A stretch of DNA of 64,000 nucleotides, from contig JAMPXK010000007.1 in assembly GCA_023701245.1 (NCBI GenBank), positions 1,733 to 65,732 of the forward strand, written 5' to 3'. How positions within the stretch are numbered: the stretch's first letter is position 1; every line of letters starts with the position of its first letter. Positions 23,774 through 45,816 of the stretch are shown piece after piece. The notes under the pieces are model-generated. The model saw only the letters and a list, made by a program, of their open reading frames with translations, made no database searches and was not told where the DNA came from. The DNA comes from Elusimicrobiales bacterium. Lineage in GTDB: Bacteria > Elusimicrobiota > Elusimicrobia > Elusimicrobiales > UBA9959. The translations under genes were made by a program, and so were the position numbers.

Positions 23774-23932
23774 GGTGCTGCCACAGGGGGGCAGAACGCA
23801 AAAACAGGGTCGCTGCGGTGTCGCCTCGCTCCACCCGCACACCGTGCTCGCCCTTCCCTGTCTCGGCCCTCGCGCTATGCAAGCTCGGGCCTCCGACAGG
23901 GTTTTGCTAACCTGCCCCCCTGCGTCAGCCCC
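23774..23932 (-). repeat. Structured intergenic element, copy A
   Basis: On minus strand GGTTAGCAAAACCCT...GAGCACGGTGTGC...TTTTTGCGTTC; same fold as copies B and C. Confidence 0.8.
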
Positions 23933-23952
23933 TCAGACATTTATTCACGTAT

Positions 23953-24086
23953 GCGGATGACAAGGGGACAGGGTGAGCAAAACCCTCGCGGAGGCCGAGC
24001 CTTGCGCAGCGGCGAGGCCGAGTGGGGAGCGGCGGCCACGGTGTGGCCGACCGCGTGTTTTGCGTTCCTGTCCCCTTGGCGTCCGC
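23953..24086 (+). repeat. Structured intergenic element, copy B
   Basis: GGTGAGCAAAACCCT...CCACGGTGTGG...TTTTGCGTTCC; terminal stem AAGGGGACAGG/CCTGTCCCCTT. Confidence 0.8.
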
Positions 24087-24090
24087 TCGC

Positions 24091-27000
24091 CTACTTTACG
24101 GCGTAGGCGCCTTCCACCATCTTGTAGTATTCCACTTCCTTGCGGTGCACCGGCTTGCCGCGCTTGAACTCCAGCTCGTAGCGCGACGCGGTGCCGTTAT
24201 TCTTGACGAGCACGGTGGGGATGGGGTCCAGCGGCACGTTCCAGCGGGCGGCCGTCAGGCGAGCCTCGGGCGTGGTCAGGTCGTGGAATTCCACCGGGAT
24301 CTCCATGCCCTTTTCCTTCAGGGCCTTGGTCAGCGCCACCTTGGCCTCCTCGCACATGCCGCAGCCGGCCTTGCCGAACACCATCACTTTCTTGGACGGG
24401 TCCTTTTCGTGCAGCCAGCTCACCTTCGGGGAGAAGTCCGCGTAGTGGTGCGCCACGGCCTCACGGGCGCGGCTGATCTCCAGCTGGGAATCGTTCCAGC
24501 CGGGGAGGTTGGAGAAGTAACCGACGATCTTGGTGCGCTTGGTCATGTTCTCGCTGCCGCATTTGCCGCACTTGTCCTTGAAGCCGAAGTAGTTGGTATG
24601 GCAGCCGTTGCAGTGCGTGAACTCCGGGGACACGGTTACCTGGGAAGCCCTGGTATTGCGGTAGGTCTTCTCTATCAGCGTGCCGATGCTCTCCGGCGGG
24701 ATCTGGCTCTCGCCGCAGTACACGTGGATGATGGAACCGGATTCTATCATGTCGTGGAACTTGCTCTGCAGTTCGATGCGGTCCAGGATGCTCACGTCCG
24801 CGCCGGGGTTGAGGTGGATGGAGTTGGTGTAGTACGGGGCCTTCACCAGGTCGCCCTTGATCACCTTCTTGGCCTCGGGGTAGCGGGCCATGTCGCCCTT
24901 GGCGAGCTTCTGCGTGGCCGATTCCGCCGGGGTTTCCTCCAGGGTCACCTTCAGGCCGGTCTGCGCCTTAAGATCGTTGATCTTGGTGTACATGTAGTCT
25001 ATGACCTGCAGGCCGGTCTCGTAGGCGTCCTTGCCCTCATGCAGCTCTTTGCCGGTGAGGTACTGCACCACCTCGTTGAGGCCGATAAGGCCCATGATGT
25101 AGGTGGCCTTCTCCAGGTTCACGTAAGGCGTGCCGTCGTCCGAGGCCACGCCGAGCGAGCGCAGCGGGGAGCCGTCGGTGTCCAGCAGGGTCTGCGTGTA
25201 GGCCTTCTTCTCCAGGTGGGCGCGCATGGCTATGTCCATGGCGCGGCCGATCTGGTCCAGCGTGCCCTGCAGGGTCTTGCCTTTGAAGGCGGCCTGCGGC
25301 AGGTTGATGGTCACGTTCTGGAAACCCGTGAAGCGGATGTTCTCGGGGTGCTTGAGCAGGTACGGGTCGGTGACCTTTTCCTTGAGGCGGCAGCACTGGG
25401 CGAGCGTCGCCCCGGCGCCGTCGCGGTCGAACATGAAGTAAGTGGAGCCGTTCTTGGTGGCCAGGCGGCAGCCGTAGTCGTACACTTCGCGCTCGTCGGG
25501 GTTCTCCAGGGCTTCCTTGCTCACGTGCAGGTCGCACTTGGGGAAGGCGAACTGGATGCCGTACTTGTCGCCGTCCTCCCATACCTTCATGAGCTCGATG
25601 GCGAACTCCTGCGAGGTCTTCACCATGCGGGGGTCGCCATAGGTGATGAACTTGCGGCCGTCGGCGGGATGCACCACGTCGCCGTTGCGGCTGTCGCCGT
25701 CCACACCCTTGAAGCGCGGCGCCTCGTCCACCAGCTCTATATTGCCGGCGGCGTCTTCCAGCATGTACTTGCCGCCGGGGCCCATGGCCGGCACATTGTG
25801 CATATACTGCGGCACGCCGGTGTGGATGTTAAAGTCTATGAACAGCGTCTGGCCGCCGCGGCTGAACGCGTTCTGGCTGGCGGAGAAGATGAGGTTCTGG
25901 GCTATCTGGCGCATTTCCCGGCGGGAATGCTTGGAGAGCACGCGCACCTCGCCGGTCTTCTTGAAGTAGGGGACCGGGGTGCCGTCCTGCAGGCTGACGG
26001 AGCCAGCCTCCACCATGGCTTCCAGCGCGTCTTTCTTCAGGCGCACGGGCTTGCCTTCCAGCTCGCCTTCCACCATCACCTCGGGGCAGTTGAGCATGGG
26101 CGCGTAGAGGATGTTGAGGAAGCCGAACCCCAGCGCCCCGGCGTAGCGGCTCTGCATGGCCGCCAGGAAAGTCTGGATATGGCCGTTGAGCACCATGGCG
26201 GACTTGGCCGGGCGGCTCTTGTTCTGCAGGTTGGACACGATCTTGTCCAGGCCGTACTTCTTTATATATTCCACGGAATGGGAAGAGCAGTACACGCGCT
26301 GGGGGTAGCCCAGGTCGTGGATGTGCACCATGCCGTTGTTGTGGGCCTGCGCCACTTCCTCGCTGAACACCTTGCGCAGGTTGTACTGCTTCAGCACGTA
26401 TTCCGCTATGCCCAGGTTCACGGCCTCGGGGTTATTGGTGGTGATGTTGGAGTTTTCCTTGCTGTTGCCTATCACCAGGCTCTCCACGGTGGAGATGGGC
26501 ATGGCCAGCGCCGAGTTCTTGAGCGGGATGCCCATCATGGACAGGTGGGATTCCGCTATGCGGCGCAGGAACTGCGTGTCGTAGCTCTTGGTGCCGTACT
26601 TCTCGGAGAGCTCGTAGGCGTTGTTCTCGGTCTCCTTGGCTATCATGGCGGCCAGGTCCGGGGTCAGCGCGTATTCCTTCTCCAGGGCCTCGGCCAGCTT
26701 CTTGCGGGAGAAAGGCTCTATGGTCTCGTTGGTGATGCTCTGCACCAGCAGCATCTGGTCGGTGATGTCGGCCTTGCCGGCCTTCTTCTTGACGGTCAGG
26801 CCGCTGCGGCGCACGCGGTTGCGGTCCAGGGCGTAAAATTCGAACTTGTCGGCGGTGCGGTCGAACTTCTTCTCGCGCAGCACGGTAACGCACATGGCGT
26901 TGGAATCGTCCACGGTGGGAATGGCGCCCTTAAGGGTAAATTCGGTATTGAGCCGGCGGGCCACTTCGTTGGCCACGTCCACGGCCTTGTCTTCGTCGCG

Positions 27001-27111
27001 GCCGCCCAGGGTAAGGGCCGCCTTGGAGATGGCGGTCTTTATCTTGTCCAGGTTGAAAGGCGCCACTTTGCCGTCACGCTTCTTGATCACTTTCGGAAAA
27101 AATTCGTTCAT
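24091..27111 (-). CDS. nrdD: Class III anaerobic ribonucleotide reductase with N-terminal ATP-cone and C-terminal CxxC redoxin domain
   Basis: VIKKRDG ATP-cone, HIHDLG, VYC, QCCRL, EETPAES, YYTNS, CxxC...CxxC, KIVGY glycyl site; then GKAGCGMC...IPT. Confidence 0.93.
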   Translation of the reverse strand: MNEFFPKVIKKRDGKVAPFNLDKIKTAISKAALTLGGRDEDKAVDVANEVARRLNTEFTLKGAIPTVDDSNAMCVTVLREKKFDRTADKFEFYALDRNRVRRSGLTVKKKAGKADITDQMLLVQSITNETIEPFSRKKLAEALEKEYALTPDLAAMIAKETENNAYELSEKYGTKSYDTQFLRRIAESHLSMMGIPLKNSALAMPISTVESLVIGNSKENSNITTNNPEAVNLGIAEYVLKQYNLRKVFSEEVAQAHNNGMVHIHDLGYPQRVYCSSHSVEYIKKYGLDKIVSNLQNKSRPAKSAMVLNGHIQTFLAAMQSRYAGALGFGFLNILYAPMLNCPEVMVEGELEGKPVRLKKDALEAMVEAGSVSLQDGTPVPYFKKTGEVRVLSKHSRREMRQIAQNLIFSASQNAFSRGGQTLFIDFNIHTGVPQYMHNVPAMGPGGKYMLEDAAGNIELVDEAPRFKGVDGDSRNGDVVHPADGRKFITYGDPRMVKTSQEFAIELMKVWEDGDKYGIQFAFPKCDLHVSKEALENPDEREVYDYGCRLATKNGSTYFMFDRDGAGATLAQCCRLKEKVTDPYLLKHPENIRFTGFQNVTINLPQAAFKGKTLQGTLDQIGRAMDIAMRAHLEKKAYTQTLLDTDGSPLRSLGVASDDGTPYVNLEKATYIMGLIGLNEVVQYLTGKELHEGKDAYETGLQVIDYMYTKINDLKAQTGLKVTLEETPAESATQKLAKGDMARYPEAKKVIKGDLVKAPYYTNSIHLNPGADVSILDRIELQSKFHDMIESGSIIHVYCGESQIPPESIGTLIEKTYRNTRASQVTVSPEFTHCNGCHTNYFGFKDKCGKCGSENMTKRTKIVGYFSNLPGWNDSQLEISRAREAVAHHYADFSPKVSWLHEKDPSKKVMVFGKAGCGMCEEAKVALTKALKEKGMEIPVEFHDLTTPEARLTAARWNVPLDPIPTVLVKNNGTASRYELEFKRGKPVHRKEVEYYKMVEGAYAVK

Positions 27112-27143
27112 TTTATGTCTTGTCCCCTCTTAAATTTCTGATT

Positions 27144-27593
27144 TCACTTCTTAATGGATTTTATCTCTTTCTCGAAATCCGTCACGTCCTCGAAATCCTT
27201 GTAGATGGACGCGAACCGGATATACGCGACTTTGTCGAGCTTCTTGAGTTTCTTGGCCACCAGCTCCCCTATCAGGCCGCTGGGGATCTCGTATTTATCC
27301 TCGCTCCTCAAGACCGCTTCGATCTCACTGCCCGCCTCCTCCATTTTCTCCATGCTGACGTCCCGCTTCTGGCAGGACTTCACTATGCCGTTCATCAGCT
27401 TGTCGCGCAGGAAACTTTCGCGCCGGCCGTCCTTCTTGATGACGACCAGCGGGTGGGATTCTATGCGCTCGTAGGTGGTGAACCGCTTCTCGCACTTTTC
27501 GCATTCGCGCCGGCGCCGTATTTCAAAGGCTTCGGACGAGTCACGGCTGTCCGTCACCTTGGTATCTTCGGCTCCGCAGAATGGGCATTTCAT
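27144..27593 (-). CDS. nrdR: Transcriptional repressor NrdR
   Basis: MKCPFC, DSR, IRRRREC..C..RFTTYE, KKDGRRE, VAYIRFASIY. Confidence 0.97.
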   Translation of the reverse strand: MKCPFCGAEDTKVTDSRDSSEAFEIRRRRECEKCEKRFTTYERIESHPLVVIKKDGRRESFLRDKLMNGIVKSCQKRDVSMEKMEEAGSEIEAVLRSEDKYEIPSGLIGELVAKKLKKLDKVAYIRFASIYKDFEDVTDFEKEIKSIKK

Positions 27594-27674
27594 CTTTTCT
27601 TTTTTCCCTGTTCACGAGGGCCGAAAGGCCCTCCGGGCGTGGCCGGTACTATACTATCCTCGGCACTCGCCAGA

Positions 27675-27721
27675 CTACTATACATTGTGCTTTAAACTGC
27701 CCCCGCCACTATTAGTAGTAG
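27675..27721. promoter_or_regulatory. Tandem NrdR boxes upstream of nrdR-nrdD-nrdG-dut
   Basis: CTACTATACATTGTGC (27675) and CCACTATTAGTAGTAG (27706) resemble acaCwAtATaTwGtg, 31 bp apart. Confidence 0.7.
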
Positions 27722-27984
27722 TGCGGATATTTTACACCATATGGGATTTTTTATGCAAATTTCAGGCCGTTTTTCATTGGTAAAAATTAATGTTGACATA
27801 AAACACGGCAAATACAGCGCTCCGCGCGCGCGCAAAAAGCGGCCGGCGCGCGGCCTGTGACTTTGGGCACATGTAACCGGCTGAGCATGGATAAAAGGCC
27901 CCCCGGAGGGTAGACTATCTGGTGACGGCGTCCGCGGGTCATTATTCATCTATTATCCCGGGGATACGGCGTCAAGGAGGCAGT

Positions 27985-28434
27985 ATGAAAGACAAGGCGA
28001 GGCAGGGGTTCACCCTGATAGAGCTGATGATAGTGGTGGCGATCATAGGTATCCTGGCGGCCATAGCGATACCCAAGTTCGCCGACCTCATCAACAAGTC
28101 AAAAGAGGGCGCTACCAAAGGCGCGCTCTCTTCGGTCAGGAGCGCGCTGCAGGTGTACTACGGCGACAACGAGGGCTGGTTCCCGACGGACACCCTGGCG
28201 ATACTGACGGCCAACGCCAAGTACATCAATGAGATACCGGCGGCGAAGCTGCCGACCACCGGGCACGCGGACAGCCGCGACGTGGTGACGGCGGTGGACG
28301 AGACCGGCGGCTGGGCTTACTACAACGACCCGGCCAGCAGCGCCCTGTGGGGCACGTTCGTGGCGAACTGCACCCATGAAGACATCAAAGGCCAGGGGAT
28401 AACAGGGACCCAGGCCACGTGGTCCACCTTCTAA
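27985..28434 (+). CDS. Type IV pilin / T2SS pseudopilin-like protein
   Basis: G|FTLIELMIVVAIIGILAAIAIP N-methylation motif; SD AAGGAGG. Confidence 0.92.
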   Translation: MKDKARQGFTLIELMIVVAIIGILAAIAIPKFADLINKSKEGATKGALSSVRSALQVYYGDNEGWFPTDTLAILTANAKYINEIPAAKLPTTGHADSRDVVTAVDETGGWAYYNDPASSALWGTFVANCTHEDIKGQGITGTQATWSTF

Positions 28435-28448
28435 CAGGAGGAAAGGAG

Positions 28449-28486
28449 AAAAAAAGACCCCGCGCCGTAAGCGCGGGGTCTTTTTT
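28449..28486. terminator. Bidirectional intrinsic terminator
   Basis: A-run, GACCCCGCGC-CGTAA-GCGCGGGGTC, T-run. Confidence 0.8.
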
Positions 28487-28501
28487 GCGGGAGCGCCCGG
28501 G

Positions 28502-30433
28502 TCAGAACCTGTAAGTCAAGTCGGCTCCGTACCGCGCCCCTATCTTTTCTCCTCCGGCGTCGGGGTGTATCTCGTAATGGCGGTTGTCCAGGAGATTGAA
28601 CGCGGTCAGCCCGGCCTCCAGTCCCTCCAGCCTCCCCGGGAATTTGTAGCCGGCCCGGGCGTTGAGCAGCAGGTAGCTGCCCACGCTGTCTCCGCCGTCC
28701 GAGTTCCACCAGGTCTTCCCGGCCCAATAGGCCCAAAGCATGCCGGCCATGGCGCCGTCGTCGTAGCGCAGGCCGCCGGCGCTCTTGTAGCGCGGGGAAT
28801 TGCGCATTTTAGTGGCCTCGCCCTTGCTGGCGTTGAAATAGGAATAAGAGGCGAAGCCGCTGGCGCCGCCGCGGATATGCAGATCTACCCTGGCCTCCGC
28901 CCCGAAGGCCCTGGCCTTATCCCTGTTGGCCCAGGACTGGTCCACGCTGATATCCGGAGCGGCAGGAGTAACGGCCTCGTCCGCATAGCCGATCATGTTT
29001 TTCATCCTGTAAGCGTAAATGGTGACGCTGGTCTTGACCCTGCCGTATTCGCCCCTGTGCGCCGCCTCCACCGATTCTATCTTCTCCGGGTCTATGTCCC
29101 GGTTGCCGCGCAGGTTGTAGATCAGGTTCCCGGTGTACCCGCCGCCGGTGGTGAGGCCGGGAATGCTGTTGTCATAGGCGCTGACGCGCGTGTAATCCAT
29201 GTAATTTTCCAGGAGCGTGGGATTGCGGAACGCTTCCCCCGCGGAAACACGGAACACGTTGCCTTGGTCGGGCAGGAAAGAAACGCTGGCCTTGGGGGAG
29301 AAGACGCTGCCTGCCAGCGGGTGACGGTCCAACCGGCCGCTCAGCGCCAGGCTCCAGCGCTCGCCCGGCTCCCAGGTATCTTCCAGGAACAGGGAGTACA
29401 TGTTCTGCGAGTGCAGGCCCGCGGGGAACAGATCGCCGCGCAGCGTGTTGCGCCTGTACTCCGCGCCGGCGGTGGCGCGGTTGCCTTCGCCCAAGGGCAG
29501 CGAATACTCAGCCTGCAGGTCATAAGTGTCGGAATTCAGCGAGGCCTCTTCGCCGGGCGAGAACTCCCGCAGCCGGGAGTTGTTCTGGTTCCAGAAAAAC
29601 CGGGTCTTGAGCCCTTCCAGGGCGTAATCAGCGCGCAGGTAGGCCGCGCGCGAGACCGGCAGGCTCTCTTCGGGCGTCAGCAAGGTCATCTCGTTGCTGA
29701 GCCTGGAAACGCCGCCGGACACGCTTACCCTGCTCTCAGGCCGGGCCGAATACTCCGCCAGGAAATTAGCCTTGGAAACCCGCGACCCTAGGCGGCCGGC
29801 GTCCTCGAACCTGTTCATGGTGCGGTGCTCGCCGCCGACCTTGTAACCGAGGGCGCCGAGTTTTTTGCCATAAAGGAAAGCGCCGGAAGCCGAAGCCCGG
29901 TTCCCGGCGGAGGCGGTCAGCGCGGCCCCGTTTATCTTCTCCGGGGACTTGGTGATGATGTTAACGACGCCCTGCAGGGCGCTGGCGCCGTAAAGGGCGG
30001 AAAAAGGCCCCTCCACTATCTCTATGCGGTCTATTTCCAGCAGGCTGACCGGGATGCTCTCCCAAAGGACCATCCCGTAAAAGTCCTGCAGGACGGTCTT
30101 GCCGTCCAGCAGCACCAGCACCCGGTTGCTGAGGCTCTGGTTGAAGCCCCGGATGGCCACGTCACCCTGGCCGGTGCGGGTCTCTATCACGTCCACCCCT
30201 GGCGCCAGCCGCAGGACGTCCCACAGCGTGCGGGCCCCGGAGAGGCGGATATCGTCGGCGGTTATCACGGACACCGAAGCCGGCGCTTTGGCCTGGGAGG
30301 TGGGAAAGAAGGTGGCCGTCAGGAACTTGGCCTCCTCGCGGAAGAACTCCAGGTCGTCATCATAGGTTCCGGCCGCGACCGGTCCGGCGCAAAGCAGGCA
30401 GCCCAGGAAAGCAAGCAAGAACGTGTTTGTCAT
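28502..30433 (-). CDS. TonB-dependent outer-membrane receptor
   Basis: Signal peptide; plug APASVSVIT...IRGF...IDRIEIVEGPFSALYG; FRNPT, NLLD, terminal YRF. Confidence 0.92.
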   Translation of the reverse strand: MTNTFLLAFLGCLLCAGPVAAGTYDDDLEFFREEAKFLTATFFPTSQAKAPASVSVITADDIRLSGARTLWDVLRLAPGVDVIETRTGQGDVAIRGFNQSLSNRVLVLLDGKTVLQDFYGMVLWESIPVSLLEIDRIEIVEGPFSALYGASALQGVVNIITKSPEKINGAALTASAGNRASASGAFLYGKKLGALGYKVGGEHRTMNRFEDAGRLGSRVSKANFLAEYSARPESRVSVSGGVSRLSNEMTLLTPEESLPVSRAAYLRADYALEGLKTRFFWNQNNSRLREFSPGEEASLNSDTYDLQAEYSLPLGEGNRATAGAEYRRNTLRGDLFPAGLHSQNMYSLFLEDTWEPGERWSLALSGRLDRHPLAGSVFSPKASVSFLPDQGNVFRVSAGEAFRNPTLLENYMDYTRVSAYDNSIPGLTTGGGYTGNLIYNLRGNRDIDPEKIESVEAAHRGEYGRVKTSVTIYAYRMKNMIGYADEAVTPAAPDISVDQSWANRDKARAFGAEARVDLHIRGGASGFASYSYFNASKGEATKMRNSPRYKSAGGLRYDDGAMAGMLWAYWAGKTWWNSDGGDSVGSYLLLNARAGYKFPGRLEGLEAGLTAFNLLDNRHYEIHPDAGGEKIGARYGADLTYRF

Positions 30434-30477
30434 AATGTTCGGTCTTACTTGATTATATTATAAACGGGAGGCGCCGC

Positions 30478-32553: not shown

Positions 32554-32616
32554 GTTTTTTACCGCAAACCTATTATATTATTTCCCGCGCCCGTCGTAAA
32601 AAGCAGCCAGGCAGGT

Positions 32617-32681
32617 TTGAGCGCCTTTTGAGGCGGATTTGAGCGATTCTTGAACGCTCTTTGTTATACTTTCTATGTAGC
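32617..32681 (+). promoter_or_regulatory. Promoter with 11-bp-periodic TTGA direct repeats and TATACT -10 box
   Basis: TTGA at 32617, 32628, 32639, 32650 (TTGT at 32661); TATACT at 32665; same phasing at 36996-37060. Confidence 0.65.
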
Positions 32682-32885: not shown

Positions 32886-32900
32886 ATTATAATCAGGATT

Positions 32901-36274: not shown

Positions 36275-36285
36275 CGGGGACCCTT

Positions 36286-36999: not shown

Positions 37000-37060
37000 G
37001 GAATATCTGAGCCCTTCCTGAACTATCCCGTAGCTCCCCCTCCTATACTATTAGTGTAGC
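36996..37060 (+). promoter_or_regulatory. Second promoter with the same 11-bp TGA(G) array
   Basis: TGA at 36997, 37008, 37019; TATACT at 37044; then N5-TGTAGC as at 32665. Confidence 0.6.
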
Positions 37061-37072
37061 CAAGGGGGAGTT

Positions 37073-37906: not shown

Positions 37907-37936
37907 GGGTTTGGGGCGAAGGGGCCAGGGGGAGTT

Positions 37937-38875: not shown

Positions 38876-38911
38876 GCCGCCGGTTTTTATAATATAATCT
38901 AGGCACAAGTT

Positions 38912-39709
38912 ATGGCCAAGATACTTATTATAGACGACGACGGGATAGTGCGCGACGCGCTGACGGTATTCTTCACGCGCGCCGGGCACCAGGTCTTTTC
39001 CGCGGCCGACGGCGGCAACGGCGTGCTGCTGTTCAAGAACGTCGGTCCGGACCTGGTGGTGCTGGACCGCGACATGCCGGTCAAGACCGGTTCCGTGGTC
39101 TTTAAAGAGATCCGGGAAATCTCTAAAGGCACTCCGGTGATAATCCTGACCGGCTACGACGCCCCTGAAGACGCCGAAGCCTACCTGCGCGACGGAGCCG
39201 CGTCCTTTCTCTCCAAGGGCGACGGGCTTTCCGTAGTGCTGGACGCGGTGGACAAACTGCTGGGCCGCCAGCGCCCGCGCCAGGAAACGGCCGCCTCCGC
39301 CCGGCAGCCGGTAAAACCCGCCCAGGCGGGATCGAGAGGCCTGCTGCTGGCCGCCGACGACGACCCCGCCATCCTCAACATTCTCAAGCGCTTTCTCACT
39401 TCGCTCGGGTTCGAAGTGATAACGGCCGAGGACGGGACCCGCACCGTGGCCCTGGCCCGCGAACGCCGGCCCGATATCATACTGCTGGACATCCTCATGC
39501 CCGGCAAGGACGGCATAGAGGTGCTCAAGGACCTGCGGCCGGAGATGCCCGGCACCGGCTTTATCATGATAACCGGCAACGAGGACGAGGACGTGGCCAA
39601 GGCCTGCCTGAACCTGGGCGCTTTCGATTACATCGAGAAGCCGGTGAACCTGGACCTGCTGGGCAATATCCTGAAAGCCCGCATGCTGATACAGCGCTCC
39701 CAGGGCTGA
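38912..39709 (+). CDS. Tandem REC-REC response regulator
   Basis: IIDDD...LDRDMP and AADDD...LDILMP; no output domain. Confidence 0.88.
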   Translation: MAKILIIDDDGIVRDALTVFFTRAGHQVFSAADGGNGVLLFKNVGPDLVVLDRDMPVKTGSVVFKEIREISKGTPVIILTGYDAPEDAEAYLRDGAASFLSKGDGLSVVLDAVDKLLGRQRPRQETAASARQPVKPAQAGSRGLLLAADDDPAILNILKRFLTSLGFEVITAEDGTRTVALARERRPDIILLDILMPGKDGIEVLKDLRPEMPGTGFIMITGNEDEDVAKACLNLGAFDYIEKPVNLDLLGNILKARMLIQRSQG

Positions 39710-39725
39710 CGCCCCGCCGGCAAAT

Positions 39726-39755
39726 AAAAAGCCCGCCTCCAGGCGGGCTTTTTTT
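39726..39755. terminator. Bidirectional intrinsic terminator
   Basis: AAAAA-GCCCGCC-TCCA-GGCGGGC-TTTTTTT. Confidence 0.8.
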
Positions 39756-39773
39756 GCGCCTCTCCCGGGCGGG

Positions 39774-40661
39774 TCAGGCCCGCTCCCCCCGCTTCGCGGC
39801 CAGGGCGGCCAGTTCAGCCGTTTCTTTTTTTGACAGGTTAAGCCCGGCCAGGAATTCCGCCCCGGCGGGGCCCATCAGCGCGGCCACGCCGGCCAGGCGC
39901 GGGCGGCCGGGCGGCAGGGCCAGGAGCGCGGGCCCGAAAGCGAAAGCCGGGTGCAGGAACGCCAGCGCCCCCAGGTCCTTGAGCAGCCCCAGCGCCGGCA
40001 GCGGGTCGGCCTCTGAAAGTATTTTCACCAGTTCGTTGCGCAGGCGCTCCCGGCTTAAAAGGCCCGGCAGGCCGTCTTTGACCGCCGCCAGCGCCAGCTC
40101 CAGCGTGCCGCCTTCCAGCCGCCAGCCGAAGCGCCCCGCGAAACGGGCCGCCCGGTAAACGCGGGTGGGATCGTCCTGGAAACTTTTAGCGTGCAGGACG
40201 CGCAGCGCGCCGGCCGCCAGGTCTTCCAGGCCTTTATAAGGGTCCAGCAGCGAAAATTTTTCCGGGCCGTTAAGGCGCACGGCCATGGCGTTGCAGGCGA
40301 AGTCGCGGCGCCCCAGGTCTTCGGCCGCGGACAGCGCCTGGGAAACTTCCGGCAGCGCGGCCGGCCGGGGATAGGTCTCCTTGCGGAACCTGGCGAAGTC
40401 CAGGCGGCGGCCGGTCCCGTCGAAGAACCGCACGGTGAGGAAGGGCGAGAATTTTTTATGCGTGCCGCCGTACTCCCGCTCCAGGCCGGCCACCAGCGGA
40501 GCGGGGTCCCCGCTCACCAGGAAATCTATGTCCGCGCTGGCGCGGCCCAGCGCCCAGTCCCGCGCGCAGCCGCCCACGGCGTAAAGCTCCAGCCCGGCCG
40601 CGTCGGCCAGGGCGGCCGCCTGTTCCAGCAGGGGCAGGTCGTTGAGCGGGCGCAGCAGCAT
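39774..40661 (-). CDS. tRNA nucleotidyltransferase (CCA/A-adding family)
   Basis: VGGCARD...DIDF, RRDF, DDPTRVYRAARF, SRERL. Confidence 0.85.
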   Translation of the reverse strand: MLLRPLNDLPLLEQAAALADAAGLELYAVGGCARDWALGRASADIDFLVSGDPAPLVAGLEREYGGTHKKFSPFLTVRFFDGTGRRLDFARFRKETYPRPAALPEVSQALSAAEDLGRRDFACNAMAVRLNGPEKFSLLDPYKGLEDLAAGALRVLHAKSFQDDPTRVYRAARFAGRFGWRLEGGTLELALAAVKDGLPGLLSRERLRNELVKILSEADPLPALGLLKDLGALAFLHPAFAFGPALLALPPGRPRLAGVAALMGPAGAEFLAGLNLSKKETAELAALAAKRGERA

Positions 40662-41305
40662 CAGATCTTTACGAAGGGGAGGGTGTCTTCCTTGCCGGCC
40701 TTAAGGACGTCCACCAGCTTCTTCAGCCGGGGCAAAGCGTCGTTCCTGGCGTACAAGGCCTCGGCGGCCTTCAGGGCCGCGGCGCGGCCGAACAGGCCGG
40801 TCGGCATAGGGAGAGTGAAAGGGATGTCCAGCTCGCGGGCGGCTACCGGGTTCACGGGCAGCAGCTTCAGGCCTTCCTCGCGCGCCATGAACTCCATCAC
40901 TTCGGTCTCTTCTTCGCGGTCCCGGTCGTTCTCCAGCCTGGCCGTCAGTTGGCCGAGGCCGAAAAGATAGAGCGGCGCCGCCGTCAGGCCCTGCCCGGAG
41001 AAGAGGGAGGCCTTCAGGGGCTCGTAATCGGCGTTCATGCGCGCCACCCACTTTTCTTTTTCCTTCTCGTAGGCCTCGGGCATGACGAAAGCCAGCAGGT
41101 CCCGCTGCGGGTCGATGTAGAGGAAAGGCTCTTCGTGCTGCAGCATCTCCTCGCACTGGGGACAGACCAGCAGGTCGAACTCTCCGCTGAGGATAAGTTC
41201 CTTCACGTCGTGGTCGCGGTCCCCGCGGACCACGGTCCAGAAGTCCGCGTCGAAACTTTCCCCGCAGTGCGGGCACTCTACCCTGAAGACGCCTTTCGTG
41301 GCCAT
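40661..41305 (-). CDS. CpXC-domain protein
   Basis: CPHC...CPQC...FLYIDP pattern. Confidence 0.75.
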   Translation of the reverse strand: MATKGVFRVECPHCGESFDADFWTVVRGDRDHDVKELILSGEFDLLVCPQCEEMLQHEEPFLYIDPQRDLLAFVMPEAYEKEKEKWVARMNADYEPLKASLFSGQGLTAAPLYLFGLGQLTARLENDRDREEETEVMEFMAREEGLKLLPVNPVAARELDIPFTLPMPTGLFGRAAALKAAEALYARNDALPRLKKLVDVLKAGKEDTLPFVKI

Positions 41306-41306
41306 G

Positions 41307-42755
41307 TTACAGGCCCACTTCCCGGTTGAAGGCCTCTATCAGGCGGTCATACTCTTCCGCCATGGCGAAGGACTCGTCCCAGAAGGCCGGGTCCCAGAGG
41401 CGGCGCAGGTCTTCGGAGGTGCGGCCCTGCTGCTCCACCCAGGTGAAGTACTTGAGGTTGTGCACGGCTTTGCGGTCGGTGTAGGTGAGCTCCTTGAGGT
41501 AGTTCACGCTCTCGCCCAGCAGGCGGCGCTCCAAGTCCACCAGCGCGTTCTCGCGGGTGTACTTGCCCATTTCCTTTTCCATTTCCTTGAGGCGGGAACC
41601 GTAGAGGTCCATGGAATCGGTGAACACGGTGACGATGACGTCGTCTTTGCCCATTTCGTAGTACTTGGCGGTCTTGATGGCGCTGAGCAGGTTGGAGATG
41701 CCGGAGAAACCGAGCAGGGCGAGCTTCTCGATAACGTCCTTCTTCACGCCGTACTCGGCCAGCACTTTTTTACCCTCGGGCTCGTTGAAGAGGCGGGCTA
41801 TGCGCACGCAGGCCTCGTCGTCGATGGCGGTGACCACGTCGGTGTTGCGCACGTTATGCACCCACGGGATGTGCTTGTCGCCTATGCCCTCTATGCGGTG
41901 CTCGCCGAAGCCGTTATTGAGGATGGTGGGGCACTGCAGGGCCTCGGAGGCGGTGATCTTCATGCCGGGGAACTTCTTCTTGAGGTAGTCGCCCGCGCCT
42001 ATGGTGCCGGCCGACCCAGTGGCGGAAGTGAAGGCCGCCAGGCGGCTCTTCGGGCCCTTTATGGCATTGAAGGCCTCTTCCAGCGCGCTTCCGGTCACGT
42101 GGTAATGCCAGGTGGGGTTGCCCATCTCCTCGAACTGGTTGAAGATCACGCAGTCCTTGCGGGTCTTCTTGATCTCCCAGCACTTGTCGTAAATTTCCTT
42201 GACGTTGCTTTCGGTGCCGGGGGTGGCTATCACCTCGGAGCCGATCTCCTTGAGCCAGTCGAAGCGCTCTTTGCTCATCCCCTCGGGCAGGATGGCCACG
42301 GGCGTGGTGCCCAGCAGCTTTGAATCGAAGGCGCCGCCGCGGCAGTAGTTGCCGGTGGAAGGCCATACGGCTTTCTGCGCCTCGGCGTCGAACTCGCCCG
42401 TGACCATGCGGGGGGCCAGGCAGCCGTAAGCCGCGCCGACCTTGTGCGCGCCGGTGGGGAAGTACTTGCCCACGATGCCTATCACGCGGGCGTCGAGGCC
42501 GGTGATCTCGCGGGGGATCTCCAGCATGTTGACGGGGCCGAAGCCGCCGGTCTTGGGGTCGTTATGCCAGTTGATGCGGAAGAGGTTGATGGGATTGACG
42601 TCCCAGAGGCCGACGGGTTTAAGGGCCTTCTTGATTTTGTCCGGGATGAGGTTGGGGTCCTTCATCTGCGCGAAAGTGGGCATCACTATCTTGCGCTTGC
42701 GGCAGAGCGCGGCGTTCCTTTTAACGATGACGGGATTGACTTTGAGTTTAGCCAT
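41307..42755 (-). CDS. PLP-dependent enzyme, fold type II (cysteine synthase-like)
   Basis: PTGAHKVGA (PLP Lys), PSTGNY, TGSAGT, HRIEGIG. Confidence 0.85.
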   Translation of the reverse strand: MAKLKVNPVIVKRNAALCRKRKIVMPTFAQMKDPNLIPDKIKKALKPVGLWDVNPINLFRINWHNDPKTGGFGPVNMLEIPREITGLDARVIGIVGKYFPTGAHKVGAAYGCLAPRMVTGEFDAEAQKAVWPSTGNYCRGGAFDSKLLGTTPVAILPEGMSKERFDWLKEIGSEVIATPGTESNVKEIYDKCWEIKKTRKDCVIFNQFEEMGNPTWHYHVTGSALEEAFNAIKGPKSRLAAFTSATGSAGTIGAGDYLKKKFPGMKITASEALQCPTILNNGFGEHRIEGIGDKHIPWVHNVRNTDVVTAIDDEACVRIARLFNEPEGKKVLAEYGVKKDVIEKLALLGFSGISNLLSAIKTAKYYEMGKDDVIVTVFTDSMDLYGSRLKEMEKEMGKYTRENALVDLERRLLGESVNYLKELTYTDRKAVHNLKYFTWVEQQGRTSEDLRRLWDPAFWDESFAMAEEYDRLIEAFNREVGL

Positions 42756-42796
42756 GGGAGCCTCCGGTGTATATCTTCGCGAAAATCTTTTTTAAA

Positions 42797-44326
42797 TTAT
42801 ACCAATATACCGGGCTTTTGGCCTCGGCCGGGCAGCCAGAGCGGGAACAGGTACGCCTCGTCCCTGCGGCAGCCCTTGGCGCGCCCGAAGGTCCGCTCCA
42901 GCGCGGCCAGCAGTTTTTTCGGCTCCCCGGCAAGGCTTTCCAGCCCGCGGTAAAGCCGTTCGGTCGGGGCGGCGCCGCGGCAGGCCCCGGCGAGCAGCGC
43001 CAGGTCACGGCGCGCCAGCGCGTAGTCGCGCTTTTCCAGGGCGGAGAGCACCAGGTTCAGCGCCGCCCAGAGCGCGTGCCGGTACGGGAACGCCCCTTTC
43101 AGCGCCTTCAGCAGGTCCGCCCTGGCGCGGCCATGGTTCTTTTTCAGGCGCCAGACTTCGCCGCGCACCACCAGCGCTTCGCCGTCCCTGGGGTTGGCCT
43201 TAACCGCGCGGTCGGCCGCCGCCAGGGCGCGGTCCAGGCGGCCGGTCTTCATAAGCGCTATGGCCAGCCAGGTATCGGCATAGTAAGCTTTTTTAGCCGC
43301 CGCCGCCGCCAGGTCGGCGAGGGCGCCGGCGTAGTCTCCGGTAAAAAGTTTAAGTTCGCCGCGCCACGCCCTCAGCGGCCCCTCCTGGTCCGGGCAAGCT
43401 TTCAGTCCCTTGGCCAGCCATCCGAAGGCGGCCCGCCGGCGGCCCAGGCAGAGTTCGGCCTCGGCCAGCCGCCCGAAAGCGTCTCCCTCCGGCGGCGGCG
43501 AGGCCAGCGCCCTGGCGAAAGCCGCCCGCGCGCCGCGGTGGTCGGGCGGCAGGGAAAAAAGCCGCTTGCGCCCTATCTCCTTGAACATCCAGCCGTAGCG
43601 GCGCAGGTTGGCCGGGCGCACCCGGCGCCATTCGCCCAGCGCCTTTTTACGCGCCCGCTCCCAGGCCGGGGCAGGCCCGGAAACCGGCACGCTGGCCAGG
43701 TAGGTCAGGTAGTAACGCTTCCAGACATCCAGCCCCGCCGGCAGCCTTGCCGCGCAAAGCGCGCGGATGCGTCCGGCGCAGACCGCGGCCGGGTAAAGCA
43801 CGCTCTGGAAGGTGACCGGGGCCGCCAGGACGGAAATTATTTCGTTGCCGGCGGGCGCGCGCAGGTTCAGCAGGTTTTCGGCCAGCAGGAAAGCCGCCGC
43901 GTACTCGCCCGCCGCGAAGCGGGCTTTGAACAGGGCGAGCAAACCCGGCACCTCGCAGGACAGGTTGAAGCGCTTGACGTCCCCGGCGAGGATGGCGGCG
44001 GCATTGGGCGCCCACTGCGGCCCGAGGCCCCGCGCGGCCAGGCGCGCGGCGGCCGGCCGGCCGGCAACCAGGTAAAGCTGCGCCAGAACGATCTGCGCCC
44101 GCGGGTCCGCCGGCTTAAGGCTGGCGGCCAGCGCCGCGGCGCTCAGCGCGTCCGCAATTCTGCCTTCGGCCCAGAACGCCTCCGCGCGGACGCGCAGCAG
44201 GAAAGACGAGCGGTCTCCGGCGGCCAGGCGCCGCCCGGCCAGCGCCGCGGCTTCGCCAAAGCGCCCTTCGCGCATCAGGCTCTCCGCGAGTTTTACGGCT
44301 TCGCTGTCGGCGCCGGAGGTTTGCAT
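42797..44326 (-). CDS. TPR-repeat protein
   Basis: Repeated TPR-like helices (WRGELKLFTGDYAGALADL; ALVVRGEVWRL); Ala/Arg-rich. Confidence 0.65.
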   Translation of the reverse strand: MQTSGADSEAVKLAESLMREGRFGEAAALAGRRLAAGDRSSFLLRVRAEAFWAEGRIADALSAAALAASLKPADPRAQIVLAQLYLVAGRPAAARLAARGLGPQWAPNAAAILAGDVKRFNLSCEVPGLLALFKARFAAGEYAAAFLLAENLLNLRAPAGNEIISVLAAPVTFQSVLYPAAVCAGRIRALCAARLPAGLDVWKRYYLTYLASVPVSGPAPAWERARKKALGEWRRVRPANLRRYGWMFKEIGRKRLFSLPPDHRGARAAFARALASPPPEGDAFGRLAEAELCLGRRRAAFGWLAKGLKACPDQEGPLRAWRGELKLFTGDYAGALADLAAAAAKKAYYADTWLAIALMKTGRLDRALAAADRAVKANPRDGEALVVRGEVWRLKKNHGRARADLLKALKGAFPYRHALWAALNLVLSALEKRDYALARRDLALLAGACRGAAPTERLYRGLESLAGEPKKLLAALERTFGRAKGCRRDEAYLFPLWLPGRGQKPGILV

Positions 44327-44352
44327 AGTTAAAATTTAGCAATTCTGGGGGC

Positions 44353-44387
44353 AAAAAAATACCCGCCGGCAAGGGCGGGTATCTTTT
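44353..44387 (-). terminator. Intrinsic terminator
   Basis: A-run with ATACCCGCC/GGCGGGTAT stem after the 44402 gene. Confidence 0.65.
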
Positions 44388-44401
44388 CGCGCGGCGGCGG
44401 C

Positions 44402-45289
44402 TTACTTCACTTCCACGCTGGGGGTCTTGTCCTTCTTTACGAAGTTGTCCTTGGAAATAACGCCCAGGCGCTTGAAGCCCCACTTCAGGAAATACTTCTT
44501 GGCGCCGCGGTCGCCGCTTACCGGGTCGGCCGGCTCGGGCCGCGTCAGTTCGCTCTCGGCGAAGGTCATCGTATACCCTTCGGCGGCGGCGAAGGAGAAC
44601 TCCTTCTCGCCCTTGAAGGTATCGAAGAACACCGCGTTGTCCTTATAGAGTTCCACCTTTATGGCCACGTTCTCTCCGGCGTATTCCTTGGCCCACTTGT
44701 CGGTCACCTTGAAGGTGTATTTGCCGTCGGCATAGGAGAAGTCGGCGTAGCTCAGGCCGTCCTCGTCGGCCTTCATCGGGGTCCTTTCGTGGGAAGTCAG
44801 GGTGAACAGCGTGTAGCCGGGCTTGCTCTCGCGCTTGGCGCTGTAGCGGTAAGCGGCGGCGTTAAGGTAGAGGTCCAGCCAGGGCCCCTGCAGGCACATG
44901 TCGAAGCTCTCTTTTTCCCAGGGCAGCAGCGCGCGGTCGGCCATCTTTATCTGGCCGTACTCGTACCAGGTCATGCCGGGGCGCTCGCTGCAGTGCTGCA
45001 CGGGCTGGTTGTTGGGGCCCACGGTGGTATAGCACTCGGTCACGTATTCCTGGCTGCGCAGGTAGACCTTTTGGGTCAGGGCGCCGGAATCCTCGGGGCC
45101 GAACGTGAAGCGCACGCAGTCGCGGGTGGTGTGGGTGCGGCCGGGCAGGGCCAGCGGGACCTGCACATCGGCCGAAACGGCCTGGCCGACGAAGTCGTTC
45201 ACGCTCACGCCCTGGTCGAAGTTCACCTGGGCGCTGGCGGCGGCCGCCAGGCCGAAGGCCGCCGTTGCGGCTAATATTGCTTTTTTCAT
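44402..45289 (-). CDS. Secreted hypothetical protein
   Basis: Signal peptide MKKAILAATAAFGLAAAASA; four Cys; SD GGAGGA. Confidence 0.8.
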   Translation of the reverse strand: MKKAILAATAAFGLAAAASAQVNFDQGVSVNDFVGQAVSADVQVPLALPGRTHTTRDCVRFTFGPEDSGALTQKVYLRSQEYVTECYTTVGPNNQPVQHCSERPGMTWYEYGQIKMADRALLPWEKESFDMCLQGPWLDLYLNAAAYRYSAKRESKPGYTLFTLTSHERTPMKADEDGLSYADFSYADGKYTFKVTDKWAKEYAGENVAIKVELYKDNAVFFDTFKGEKEFSFAAAEGYTMTFAESELTRPEPADPVSGDRGAKKYFLKWGFKRLGVISKDNFVKKDKTPSVEVK

Positions 45290-45378
45290 TATGCTTTCAT
45301 TCCTCCGGATCTATATTTCCCCCCCGGAAAACTACCGGGTTATAGCGATATTTTACCTTATTTCCCGCTGCGGGCGGC

Positions 45379-45651
45379 CTAGGCCACTTTCACGTTCTTT
45401 CCTATCCAGACAAAGGCGGAAGGCAGCACCATGCACTGGCAGTGCGAACTGAGTATGGAATTGTGTTCCGGCATGATGTTCACTATGCCGTTGGTCCAGG
45501 ACACGTAGCGGATATGCTCCCCTTCCACCCATTCGTAAACGCGGGGGCCCACCCGCGGCATGATGGTCCACACCACCGCGTTGTCCCAGGGGATCTCCTC
45601 CGCGTTGGACGAGTACTTTATCTCCGGTATCTTGGCCGCCATCGAATCCAT
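45379..45651 (-). CDS. Small hypothetical protein
   Basis: 90 aa with host-like codons; SD AAGGAG; Trp-rich, HCQC. Confidence 0.7.
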   Translation of the reverse strand: MDSMAAKIPEIKYSSNAEEIPWDNAVVWTIMPRVGPRVYEWVEGEHIRYVSWTNGIVNIMPEHNSILSSHCQCMVLPSAFVWIGKNVKVA

Positions 45652-45679
45652 GAATTTCTCCTTATTTTATACCCGTGAA

Positions 45680-45816
45680 GGGGCCTGACGCGGGGGCCGG
45701 GTTAGCAAAACCCTGCCGGAGCCCGACGCTTGCGTAAGCGCGGAGGGCGAGGCGGGGAGGCGCGAGCACGGTGTGCGAGACGCCGTTTTTGCGTTCCGGC
45801 CCGCGTGGCGGGCCCC
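45680..45816 (+). repeat. Structured intergenic element, copy C
   Basis: GGTTAGCAAAACCCT...GAGCACGGTGTGC...TTTTTGCGTTCC; abuts the 3' end of rnpB. Confidence 0.8.

What the first reader, a model, noticed from the sequence alone, without database searches (positions are those of the whole stretch)
23774..45816. Family of intergenic elements with a conserved fold but covarying stems (tandem G-A loops, TT bulge, CAC-GGT-GTG hairpin)
Seen: three copies (A 23774-23932 minus, B 23953-24086 plus, C 45680-45816 plus) share short anchors (TGAC, GGT[T/G]AGCAAAACCCT, CACGGTGTG, TTTTGCGTTC, TGGC), while the stems between them differ yet stay paired. Arm 1 reads CCCTGTC-GGA-GGCCC-GA-GC-TT-GC-ATA-GC-GC-GA-GGGCC-GA-GACAGGG in A, CCCTCGC-GGA-GGCC-GA-GCC-TT-GC-GCA-GC-GGC-GA-GGCC-GA-GTGGGG in B and CCCTGCC-GGA-GCCC-GA-CGC-TT-GC-GTAA-GC-GCG-GA-GGGC-GA-GGCGGGG in C. 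The GGA/GA and GA/GA internal loops and the TT bulge are invariant. The closing stem keeps an A:G mismatch in all three copies, and copy A carries an extra GA-paired hairpin. The folding strand is sense to local transcription in A but antisense in B and C, and A and B sit back-to-back between nrdD and nrdG. Established: tandem sheared G-A pairs and GNA loops stabilise ssDNA hairpins, and REP/RAYT and attC systems recognise folded ssDNA. Inference: an undescribed structure-selected dispersed element, probably a folded-ssDNA substrate for an HUH nuclease or recombinase encoded elsewhere, or a novel ncRNA.
Basis: partly seen in the sequence, partly recalled or inferred. Interest (0 to 1): 0.78.

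Follow-up and report, generated by a model that had tools for sequence, protein, structure and literature searches.

The report
Structured intergenic hairpin repeat family
The three look-alike stretches belong to a family of about 60 long DNA hairpins per genome, found so far only in one family of groundwater Elusimicrobia, that are gained, lost, flipped and paired like the REP/BIME repeats of other bacteria but are larger and have no known enzyme partner.

Summary
Copies A, B and C are real. A covariance model finds 59 copies in this 2.55 Mb draft genome and 9 to 87 in each of 24 same-genus genomes (87 is the scoring cap). It finds copies in 4 of 7 genera of the same family and almost nowhere else in the phylum. 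No Rfam family matches.

Each copy is a 107-186 nt hairpin ending in a three-way junction. The tip is conserved and the stems covary strongly. Non-standard pairs favour one strand: G.T 55 against A.C 8.

Copies are intergenic, enriched between convergent genes and depleted between divergent ones. Their orientation does not follow transcription or GC skew.

Three orthologous loci show empty sites, different subfamilies, inverted cores, nested copies and remnants. Neighbouring copies are always head-to-head (14 of 14).

Best reading (0.5): a BIME/REPIN-like, non-autonomous structured DNA repeat recognised as a folded single strand. The HUH idea is not supported. This genome has no Y1 transposase gene, and the Y1 genes of relatives are flanked by a different repeat. 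An RNA role could not be tested.

The parts
23774..23932 (-). Copy A: subfamily-i element (GCAAAAC/GTTTTGC inner stem) with three-way-junction tip. Sense to the nrdD-nrdG transcription unit.
   Evidence: Model R1 match 23782-23924 (-), 74.4 bits. DNA fold z = -5.5. Sequence read.
23813..23834 (-). Optional 23-nt mini-hairpin module inside arm 2 of copy A (GTG-GA-GC-GNG-GC-GA-CAC; most copies read GCGAAGC).
   Evidence: It appears as an insertion in the alignments. The same module sits in arm 1 in subfamily ii and in arm 2 in three subfamily-i copies. In relatives it also occurs on the 5' side of arm 1 (L113, L118, L120, L098).
23757..23777 (-). 3' tail motif next to copy A (CACCGACCGGGAATCTCGTGC on the minus strand). 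It resembles the CCCCGACTGGGCTTCTCGCGG tail that follows elements in relatives.
   Evidence: This is the only such motif within 80 nt of an element in this genome. In G018 it is conserved 3' of the copies, and it recurs at the relatives' loci.
23933..23952 (.). Short spacer of the head-to-head doublet A(-)/B(+).
   Evidence: Read. In three other genomes, 14 of 14 neighbouring pairs at most 400 nt apart have the same (-,+) order.
23953..24086 (+). Copy B: subfamily-i element that abuts the nrdD stop codon. Antisense to nrdD-nrdG.
   Evidence: R1 match 23959-24080 (+), 110.2 bits. DNA fold z = -7.1. Copies at the same place in many relatives keep the outer stem but carry other core variants.
45667..45821 (+). 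Copy C: subfamily-i element between the start of ORF 45379-45651 (-) and the 3' end of rnpB. Antisense to both.
   Evidence: R1 match 45688-45808 (+), 85.4 bits. DNA fold z = -4.5. Relatives lacking it join the flanks directly, with query bases 368-518 of window 45300-46250 missing.
23016..23741 (-). nrdG-like radical-SAM activase gene (context).
   Evidence: Pfam Radical_SAM, E = 2.9e-14.
24091..27111 (-). nrdD, anaerobic ribonucleotide reductase gene (context).
   Evidence: Pfam NRDD, E = 1.2e-105, plus ATP-cone.
45824..46207 (-). rnpB, RNase P RNA class A (context).
   Evidence: Rfam RF00010, 183.8 bits.

Best explanation
It is a lineage-specific, non-autonomous structured DNA repeat of the REP/BIME/REPIN kind, but larger.

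Anatomy (shown): each unit is a 107-186 nt hairpin. Its tip is a conserved three-way junction. Arm 1 has a TT bulge, G.A steps and a GNA or GNRA loop. Arm 2 reads CAC-GGT-GTG and carries a bulged A. The long outer stem differs from copy to copy but stays paired.

Behaviour (shown):
- Units sit in gene-free gaps, mainly downstream of genes.
- They are present or absent at orthologous sites with no visible target duplication.
- Their cores can be inverted or exchanged while the flanks stay put.
- They nest inside one another and leave remnants.
- When adjacent they are always head-to-head.

Mechanism (inferred): the family spreads and rearranges at the DNA level. What is conserved is the fold of one particular strand, most likely read as a single-stranded DNA hairpin by a trans-acting enzyme not yet identified. 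It is apparently not the Y1/RAYT transposase of this genus. Arm-to-arm copying (template switching within the palindrome) probably adds to the compensated changes in the outer stems.
For: Copy number and spread:
- 66 nhmmer hits and 59 model hits in this genome.
- 24 of 24 same-genus genomes, and 0 of 16 from two other families of the order.
- 6 of 151 genomes across the phylum, including this one. Within the family, 4 of 7 other genomes scored (one per genus) have it.

Structure:
- MAFFT alignment: 40 of 50 pairs change on both sides, and 0 of 500 shuffles reach the score.
- Model-fitted alignment: 92.2% of cells paired and 43 of 50 pairs changing on both sides.

Strand asymmetry:
- G.T plus T.G against A.C plus C.A is 55 to 8 in outer stems of own copies, and 108 to 20 in relatives.
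- The fold strand is more stable than its complement in 47 of 47 copies with RNA parameters and 45 of 47 with DNA parameters.

Placement: convergent 18, divergent 2, tandem 31. Expected by region count: 6.7, 7.1 and 37.2, P about 6e-6.

Turnover at orthologous loci:
- nrdG-nrdD spacer: 49-465 nt across 29 loci, and 8 loci have no model hit.
- A convergent-gene gap: 6 nt in the nearest relative against a 147-nt element here. Across 22 loci it holds 0, 1 or 2 copies of differing subfamily and orientation.
- rnpB site: 26 of 29 loci filled, 2 empty (21 and 22 nt), 2 with the core inverted, several nested, and no duplication at the joints.

Modularity:
- Core identity and outer-stem identity are decoupled, r = 0.29.
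- The mini-hairpin sits at three different places.

Doublets: 14 of 14 neighbouring pairs are (-,+) in three genera.

A near-uniform set in G018 (10 full-length copies, 86-92% identical to C over 135-140 nt) shares the same ends and conserved flanks.
Against: - No mobilising enzyme was found.
- No two full-length copies in this genome are near-identical: pairs with at least 95% core identity share at most 85% of the outer stem. So recent transposition here is not shown.
- The presence/absence patterns could come largely from deletions of old copies. Solo arms and short leftover hairpins were seen.
- Polarity was not tested on a tree.
- Orientation shows no bias against GC skew (28 to 19), which an ssDNA mechanism tied to the lagging strand would predict. 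The skew signal in this draft assembly is weak.
- G.T wobbles, G.A steps and GNRA loops fit RNA as well as DNA.
- The counts of non-standard pairs are not independent events, because copies share descent.
- The gene calls behind the placement test come from my own simple caller.
Confidence: 0.5

Rival explanations
1. A multi-copy family of structured non-coding RNAs, or a cis-acting RNA element such as a 3'-end stabiliser or insulator. Here the RNA fold is what selection sees, and the DNA-level shuffling is secondary.
For: - Strong covariation.
- G.U-type pairs far outnumber A.C.
- GNRA-like tetraloops occur in arm 1.
- The fold strand is 10 kcal/mol more stable than its complement on average with RNA parameters.
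- Copies lie mostly downstream of genes.
- G018 copies share a conserved A/T-rich 5' flank and a conserved 3' tail, and doublets are arranged as if read outward from the spacer.
- T runs within 45 nt are somewhat commoner 3' of the fold strand: 9 against 3 of 51.
Against: - In tandem gene contexts the fold strand is sense in 12 and antisense in 19 cases. A cis-acting mRNA element is therefore unlikely.
- Matches to the -10 consensus are no commoner upstream than in the control: 15 against 16 of 51 at 5 of 6 or better.
- Some doublet gaps between model matches are only 13-28 nt, leaving no room for two promoters.
- At the same orthologous site the core is inverted in two species while the flanks stay.
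- Triloops of GNA type, including GCGAAGC, are recalled as hallmarks of stable DNA mini-hairpins rather than of RNAs (recalled, not tested here).
Confidence: 0.2
2. One reading: REP-like substrates of an HUH (Y1, RAYT-type) transposase encoded elsewhere.
For: - Y1_Tnp genes occur in 37 of 43 same-genus genomes.
- No target duplication is visible at the joints, as expected for HUH enzymes (recalled).
- Head-to-head doublets recall REPINs, and compensatory changes in hairpins are reported for REPINs (PMC3116915, passages read).
Against: - This genome has no Y1_Tnp match, and neither do G003, G022, G044, G053 and G056. One search scanned two of these, G003 and G022, and found 59 and 45 elements.
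- Of 24 Y1 loci (109,552 bases), one holds an element, about the background density.
- The Y1 gene at G017:C8:244941-245775 is bounded by inverted AATAGGGACAGACACCT. That repeat also occurs at three further Y1 loci and as a doublet at the rnpB site of G023, and it has 0 copies in this genome.
Confidence: 0.1
3. Selfish or inert long palindromes with no reader. In this view the apparent covariation comes from arm-to-arm copying (quasi-palindrome template switching or gene conversion between inverted arms) and from exchange between copies, not from selection on a fold.
For: - Closely related copies differ by paired changes in otherwise near-identical sequence (C73:36528 against C59:28121).
- Outer stems at the orthologous rnpB site differ widely between species yet stay paired, while the flanks are conserved.
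- Core inversions fit recombination between the arms.
- Orientation is random with respect to genes and GC skew.
Against: - Arm copying would erase mismatches, yet specific G.A steps, T.G wobbles, the TT bulge and the bulged A persist across genera.
- G.T exceeds A.C several-fold on one strand.
- The element length is held almost constant: 114-124 nt for the core plus up to 24-nt arms in copies without the module.
- The family has persisted across at least four genera.
Confidence: 0.15

Closest known systems
REP sequences and BIMEs of enterobacteria and pseudomonads
   Same: - Extragenic, multi-copy imperfect palindromes placed after genes.
- A built-in asymmetry defines a head and a tail.
- Neighbours sit in opposite orientation with particular linkers.
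- Composition is mosaic. The BIME features are recalled.
   Different: - The unit is 107-186 nt with a three-way junction, not a hairpin of about 35 nt.
- The tip is conserved and the stem variable.
- No cognate RAYT was found.
REPINs with RAYT transposases (Bertels and Rainey 2011, PMC3116915; passages read)
   Same: - Inverted doublets act as the higher-order unit.
- Hairpin-forming ability is conserved, with compensatory changes.
- Inheritance is vertical and lineage-restricted.
- Presence/absence occurs without an obvious duplication.
   Different: - In REPINs the conserved REPs are the outer arms and the compensated spacer is near the tip. Here it is the reverse.
- Each half of the doublet is a full hairpin on its own, and the two halves are only about 74% alike.
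- The genus appears to have a separate RAYT-linked repeat.
ERIC/IRU elements of enterobacteria (recalled)
   Same: - Imperfect palindromes over 100 nt long in intergenic regions.
- Moderate copy number.
- Optional internal insertions at fixed points, and deletions.
   Different: - No sequence relation was tested.
- ERICs are reported in transcribed regions with an RNA-level reading.
- Here orientation ignores transcription.
Integron attC sites (recalled)
   Same: - Structure is conserved rather than sequence.
- One strand folds better than the other.
- Unpaired bases persist.
- Length is similar.
   Different: - The elements are dispersed over more than 40 contigs in both orientations, next to housekeeping genes, not in cassette arrays.
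- Integrase genes were not searched.
MITEs such as Correia elements (recalled)
   Same: Small, non-autonomous, intergenic, with inverted ends. G018 doublets end in a roughly 36-nt inverted terminal motif.
   Different: - No target-site duplication is visible.
- The inverted arms differ between copies.
- No parent insertion sequence was found.

Membership tests
Any Rfam 15 family | Match at the family's gathering score | tested here: not met
   Window scan: only rnpB and one tRNA. E-value scans of both regions gave only far-sub-threshold palindrome-type microRNA hits. The best was 39.9 bits against a cut-off of 200.
REP/BIME | High-copy extragenic imperfect palindromes, mostly downstream of genes | tested here: met
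   59 copies. Convergent 18, divergent 2, tandem 31, against an expected 6.7, 7.1 and 37.2.
REP/BIME | Unit is a short hairpin of about 20-40 nt with a conserved flanking tetranucleotide (recalled definition) | tested here: not met
   Units are 107-186 nt with a three-way junction. No GTAG-type motif was looked for.
REPIN-RAYT system | Cognate Y1 (RAYT) gene present and flanked by the repeat | tested here: not met
   No Y1_Tnp match in this genome. One of 24 Y1 loci holds an element. Y1 genes are flanked by another repeat.
REPIN-RAYT system | Repeats organised as inverted doublets | tested here: met
   14 of 14 neighbouring pairs at most 400 nt apart are (-,+) in G018, G098 and G158. A/B in the window are the same.
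MITE (DDE-transposon derivative) | Target-site duplication at the ends | tested here: not met
   Filled and empty sites compared at the rnpB locus and at C73:22631 show no duplication. Only two loci were compared, and their flanks are 75-90% identical.
MITE (DDE-transposon derivative) | Terminal inverted repeats conserved among copies and shared with a parent IS | tested here: inconclusive
   Outer arms differ between copies. G018 doublets share an inverted terminal motif. No parent IS was searched for.
Integron attC | Cassette arrays in one orientation next to, or derived from, an integron integrase | tested here: not met
   Copies are scattered singly or in head-to-head pairs on more than 40 contigs. 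The integrase gene was not searched.
IS200/IS605 derivatives (PATE, omega-RNA-bearing ends) | Association with TnpA (Y1) or TnpB genes | tested here: inconclusive
   Y1: not met. TnpB was not searched. The window scan at gathering scores and E-value scans of the two element regions matched no further Rfam family.

The most novel reading that the evidence does not exclude
The elements are a new class of single-strand-read genetic element. A long hairpin 'chassis' has conserved 5' and 3' end motifs and fixed head-to-head pairing. It carries exchangeable apical cores: this three-way junction, or the second core type seen in the same chassis. It is propagated by a machine that is not an HUH transposase. 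One possibility is a reverse-transcribed or otherwise RNA-borne intermediate, which would make it a bacterial SINE-like family. Another is a multi-copy structured RNA with a cellular role.
Probability: 0.2. Interest if true: 0.8.

Novelty: new variant of a known kind. Interest (0 to 1): 0.58.

Why it matters
Structured interspersed repeats are known mostly from proteobacteria and firmicutes. How they move, and what they do, is still debated.

This family comes from uncultured groundwater Elusimicrobia. It offers an unusually informative case for four reasons:
- It has an elaborate fold rich in non-standard pairs.
- It has hundreds of natural variants across at least four genera.
- It has clear filled, empty, inverted and nested states at orthologous sites.
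- It has a strict head-to-head pairing rule.

It also coexists with what looks like an ordinary RAYT-linked repeat, so the two systems can be compared within one lineage.

In practice these elements break assemblies: many copies lie at contig ends. They could also be mistaken for ncRNA genes or riboswitches.

Tried and rejected
- Rfam: no family at gathering or permissive thresholds.
- Expression: no RNA holder was listed among the 10 runs returned. Read laying did not complete in six tries of the same request. So neither expression nor strain-level polymorphism was examined.
- Y1/RAYT link: rejected as described under the rivals.
- Insertion into pre-existing terminator loops: rejected. Where a terminator-like hairpin exists after nrdD in relatives, it stands beside the elements, not around them. 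The nearest relative has only 6 nt at the C73:22631 site.
- Own promoter: no excess of -10-like hexamers.
- Replication-strand bias: 28 to 19, not significant, on a weak skew signal.
- The mini-hairpin as a free-living repeat: rejected. It is found essentially only inside elements.
- A survey for other palindromes with an 11-nt seed mostly returned chance matches in coding DNA.
- My first two scripts for finding element boundaries failed, through a faulty anchor pattern and a walk that stopped at the junction. One search replaced them.
- One strand folding exceeded the length limit and was resent shorter.
- Not run: R-scape (not on hand; the count of structure pairs was used instead), a tree-based test of gain against loss, protein searches for other recombinases, structure prediction and complex prediction.

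Full report
**What is there**

They align at 74% mean column identity. Each folds on the stated strand into a long hairpin whose tip is a three-way junction. As DNA the z-scores are -4.5, -7.1 and -5.5. The complements give -2.2, -6.7 and -4.2.

The window lies in a 2.55 Mb, 96-contig draft genome of 63% G+C. The flanking genes are nrdD, a radical-SAM activase gene and rnpB, all on the minus strand.

**Family size and spread**

A profile built from the three copies finds 56 places in the genome at E up to 0.001. Iteration raises this to 66. Many lie at contig ends.

I built covariance model R1 (122 positions, 50 pairs) from 47 genome copies plus A and B. It finds:
- 59 copies here.
- 9 to 87 in each of 24 of 24 same-genus genomes, where 87 is the scoring cap.
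- None in 16 genomes of two other families of the order.
- Across the phylum, 6 of 151 genomes including this one: 4 of 7 genomes (one per genus) of the same family, and three weak matches in one genome of another family.

An exact search for the 22-base mini-hairpin over 185,579 species genomes returned 33 stretches. All came from metagenome-assembled genomes. All but four, from one genome titled only 'bacterium', were labelled Elusimicrobia, Elusimicrobiota or Elusimicrobiales.

No Rfam family matches. Two literature searches that paired Elusimicrobia with repeat or palindrome terms listed nothing relevant by title or abstract.

**Anatomy**

Full units span 107-186 nt. With up to 24-nt arms either side of the junction, copies without the optional module are 114-124 nt long.

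Arm 1 has three parts:
- An outer helix.
- A GGA/GA or GCA/GA loop.
- A seven-pair helix interrupted by a G.A step that sits after pair 2, 4 or 5, followed by an invariant TT bulge and a GC clamp closed by GTAA, GCA, ATA or ATAA.

Arm 2 is an 11-pair helix with a bulged A and a GGT loop. In one subfamily two of its pairs are replaced by a tandem G.A.

There are two main subfamilies. They differ in the stem below the junction: GCAAAAC/GTTTTGC, as in A, B and C, or GGGCC.../...GCCCG with two conserved T.G wobbles.

A 23-nt mini-hairpin (GTG-GA-GC-GAA-GC-GA-CAC) is optional. It occurs at three different places in the element and practically nowhere else in the genome.

**Covariation and strand**

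| Alignment | Cells paired | Shuffled | Pairs changed on both sides | Covariation score | Shuffles reaching it |
|---|---|---|---|---|---|
| MAFFT | 84.4% | 66.7% | 40 of 50 | 0.419 against 0.153 | 0 of 500 |
| Model-fitted (leans towards the structure) | 92.2% | 67.9% | 43 of 50 | 0.584 against 0.161 | 0 of 500 |

With the 3' partners slid by 1 to 3 columns, the score is at most 0.177 on the MAFFT alignment.

In the 24 outer-stem pairs, G.T plus T.G number 55 against 8 for A.C plus C.A in own copies. In relatives the figures are 108 against 20. Two conserved wobble columns account for 23 of the 55.

The fold strand is the more stable one in 47 of 47 copies with RNA parameters and 45 of 47 with DNA parameters. 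Strand assignment rests on the asymmetric core, not on stability. But copies share descent, so these counts are not independent events.

**Placement**

I used a simple self-trained gene caller (2,144 genes, 90% coding). With it, nearly all copies are intergenic and lie 10-80 nt from both neighbours.

| Intergenic type | Observed | Expected by region count |
|---|---|---|
| Convergent | 18 | 6.7 |
| Divergent | 2 | 7.1 |
| Tandem | 31 | 37.2 |

P is about 6e-6.

- In tandem contexts the fold strand is sense 12 times and antisense 19 times.
- There is no bias against GC skew (28 to 19) or gene-strand majority (14 to 17).
- There is no excess of -10-like hexamers (15 against 16 of 51).
- There is a small excess of T runs 3' of the fold strand (9 against 3 of 51).

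**Turnover at orthologous loci**

1. nrdG-nrdD spacer, 29 genus loci. Length is 49-465 nt. Six spacers of 49-72 nt hold no family member. Five of these carry a terminator-like hairpin, complete in four, and one carries another palindrome. Eight loci have no model hit. The others hold one to three elements. There are also remnants: solo arms, and a short hairpin made of the outermost pairs. Copies in the place of B keep their outer stem across species but carry different core variants.

2. A convergent-gene gap (own contig C73:22631). The nearest relative has 6 nt between the two stop codons, where this genome has a 147-nt element filling the gap. Across 22 loci the gap holds no copy, one or two copies of differing subfamily and orientation, a second repeat family, or a plain bidirectional terminator.

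3. rnpB site, 29 loci. Twenty-six are filled at the same point. Two are empty (21 and 22 nt). One holds a different inverted doublet. Two have the core inverted while the end motifs stay. Several are nested or tandem. No duplication is visible at the joints. By match coordinates, at least five more genomes join the flanks within 1-19 nt.

**Modularity and doublets**

Core identity and outer-stem identity are only weakly correlated (r = 0.29). The four pairs with at least 98% identical cores share 67-82% of their outer stems. The 19 pairs with at least 85% identical outer stems share 70% of their cores on average.

In G018, 10 full-length copies are 86-92% identical to C over 135-140 nt with the same ends. 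They share a conserved A/T-rich 5' flank and a 3' tail (CCCCGACTGGGCTTCYCGCGG...). Many stand head-to-head with another element, or with a member of the second family, across a spacer of about 70-100 nt. This gives a composite with inverted terminal motifs.

Over three genomes from three genera, all 14 neighbouring pairs at most 400 nt apart are in (-,+) order. A/B in the window are the same. So are the 12 neighbouring pairs up to about 160 nt apart in the loci. Some of those are the same locus in different species.

**The HUH idea**

Pfam Y1_Tnp is found in 37 of 43 genus genomes, but not in this one (92.8% complete). It is also missing from G003, G022, G044, G053 and G056. The two of these covered by the scan, G003 and G022, carry 59 and 45 elements.

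Among 24 Y1 loci (109,552 bases), one element was found, in a stretch I had extended to include it.

In the nearest relative, a Y1 gene sits where this genome has an element (C73:10735). That gene is bounded by inverted AATAGGGACAGACACCT. The same repeat flanks three other Y1 loci and forms a doublet at the rnpB site of G023. It has no copy in this genome. So the genus seems to have an ordinary RAYT-linked repeat that is distinct from this family.

**Reading**

Several features are DNA-level behaviours of the REP/BIME/REPIN kind:
- placement after genes;
- the lack of duplications at the joints;
- the strict doublet rule;
- core inversion in place;
- nesting, remnants and module exchange.

REPINs are also reported to keep their hairpin through compensatory changes (PMC3116915, passages read).

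What sets this family apart is its size, its conserved three-way-junction tip under a variable stem, its wealth of G.A steps and GNA/GNRA loops, and the absence of a partner enzyme.

The one-strand bias of the non-standard pairs argues that a single strand is read. Whether that strand is DNA or RNA cannot be settled here. I put the options as follows:

| Reading | Confidence |
|---|---|
| DNA-level repeat read as a folded single strand by an unknown enzyme | 0.5 |
| RNA family | 0.2 |
| Palindromes kept only by arm-to-arm copying | 0.15 |
| HUH substrate | 0.1 |

**Limits**

- No expression data were available, and no reads were laid.
- Supplementary files were not consulted.
- Gain against loss was not tested on a tree.
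- Gene calls are my own.
- Features of BIMEs, ERICs, attC sites and DNA mini-hairpins are recalled, except where a call is cited.

Noticed in passing
Own genome contigs C32:15775, C76:124723, C87:2982 (outside the window); relatives L097, L169, L171, L172, L180, L194, L229, L232: There is a second structured repeat family with another apical core (…GGGGAGGGG…GGGAACCGCGCAACGGTTCCC…). It sits in the same kind of long outer hairpin, at the same intergenic sites, and head-to-head with the present family in G018.
   Followed up: partly
L165 (G017:C8:244941-245775); L225; L132, L134, L135: In relatives, RAYT-like Y1 transposase genes are bounded by inverted AATAGGGACAGNCACCT. The same repeat forms a REPIN-like doublet at the rnpB site of G023. 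This genome has neither the gene nor the repeat.
   Followed up: partly
Own genome C14:19216-19308 and C21:19054-19145; C21:66791-66852 and C27:4873-4945: Two other small elements have perfect terminal inverted repeats of 25-29 bp (GGGGACGTTGTTGACTATTTGACT… and GGGGTCAGGTCTTTACTTTTGACC…). They look like classical MITEs or IS ends.
   Followed up: no
window 23757-23777; L176, L190, L191 and others at the C73:22631 locus; nrd loci L095, L099, L113, L114: The motif CCCCGACTNNGCWTCTCGCGG recurs 3' of elements and sometimes alone (L191). It may be the element's tail, or a separate small repeat or binding site.
   Followed up: partly
L105, L108, L113, L115, L116, L117 (nrdD 3' flank in relatives): A conserved terminator-like hairpin, GGCGGCGCC-loop-GGCGCCGCC with a T run, follows nrdD in several relatives. 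It is missing here, where copy B abuts the nrdD stop codon.
   Followed up: no
Own genome contig ends: C16:1, C17:1, C23:15, C54:1, C64:1, C3:24238, C5:24133, C38:14628: Many copies are cut by contig ends, so the family breaks the assembly and the true copy number is higher than counted.
   Followed up: no
window 24091-27111 (-), residues 908-952: NrdD carries a C-terminal glutaredoxin-like stretch just below the Pfam cut-off (21.7 against 26 bits).
   Followed up: no
L102 (G048 nrdG-nrdD spacer): Here the spacer holds an unrelated near-perfect palindrome with 33-nt arms (GGGGACGCTGCTTCCTATCTTCCTAAC…) instead of a family member.
   Followed up: no
L061 and L094: These two loci gave identical model scores and coordinate spacing. 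One came from a named MAG record and the other from handle G004, so they probably hold the same sequence. I did not pursue this.
   Followed up: no
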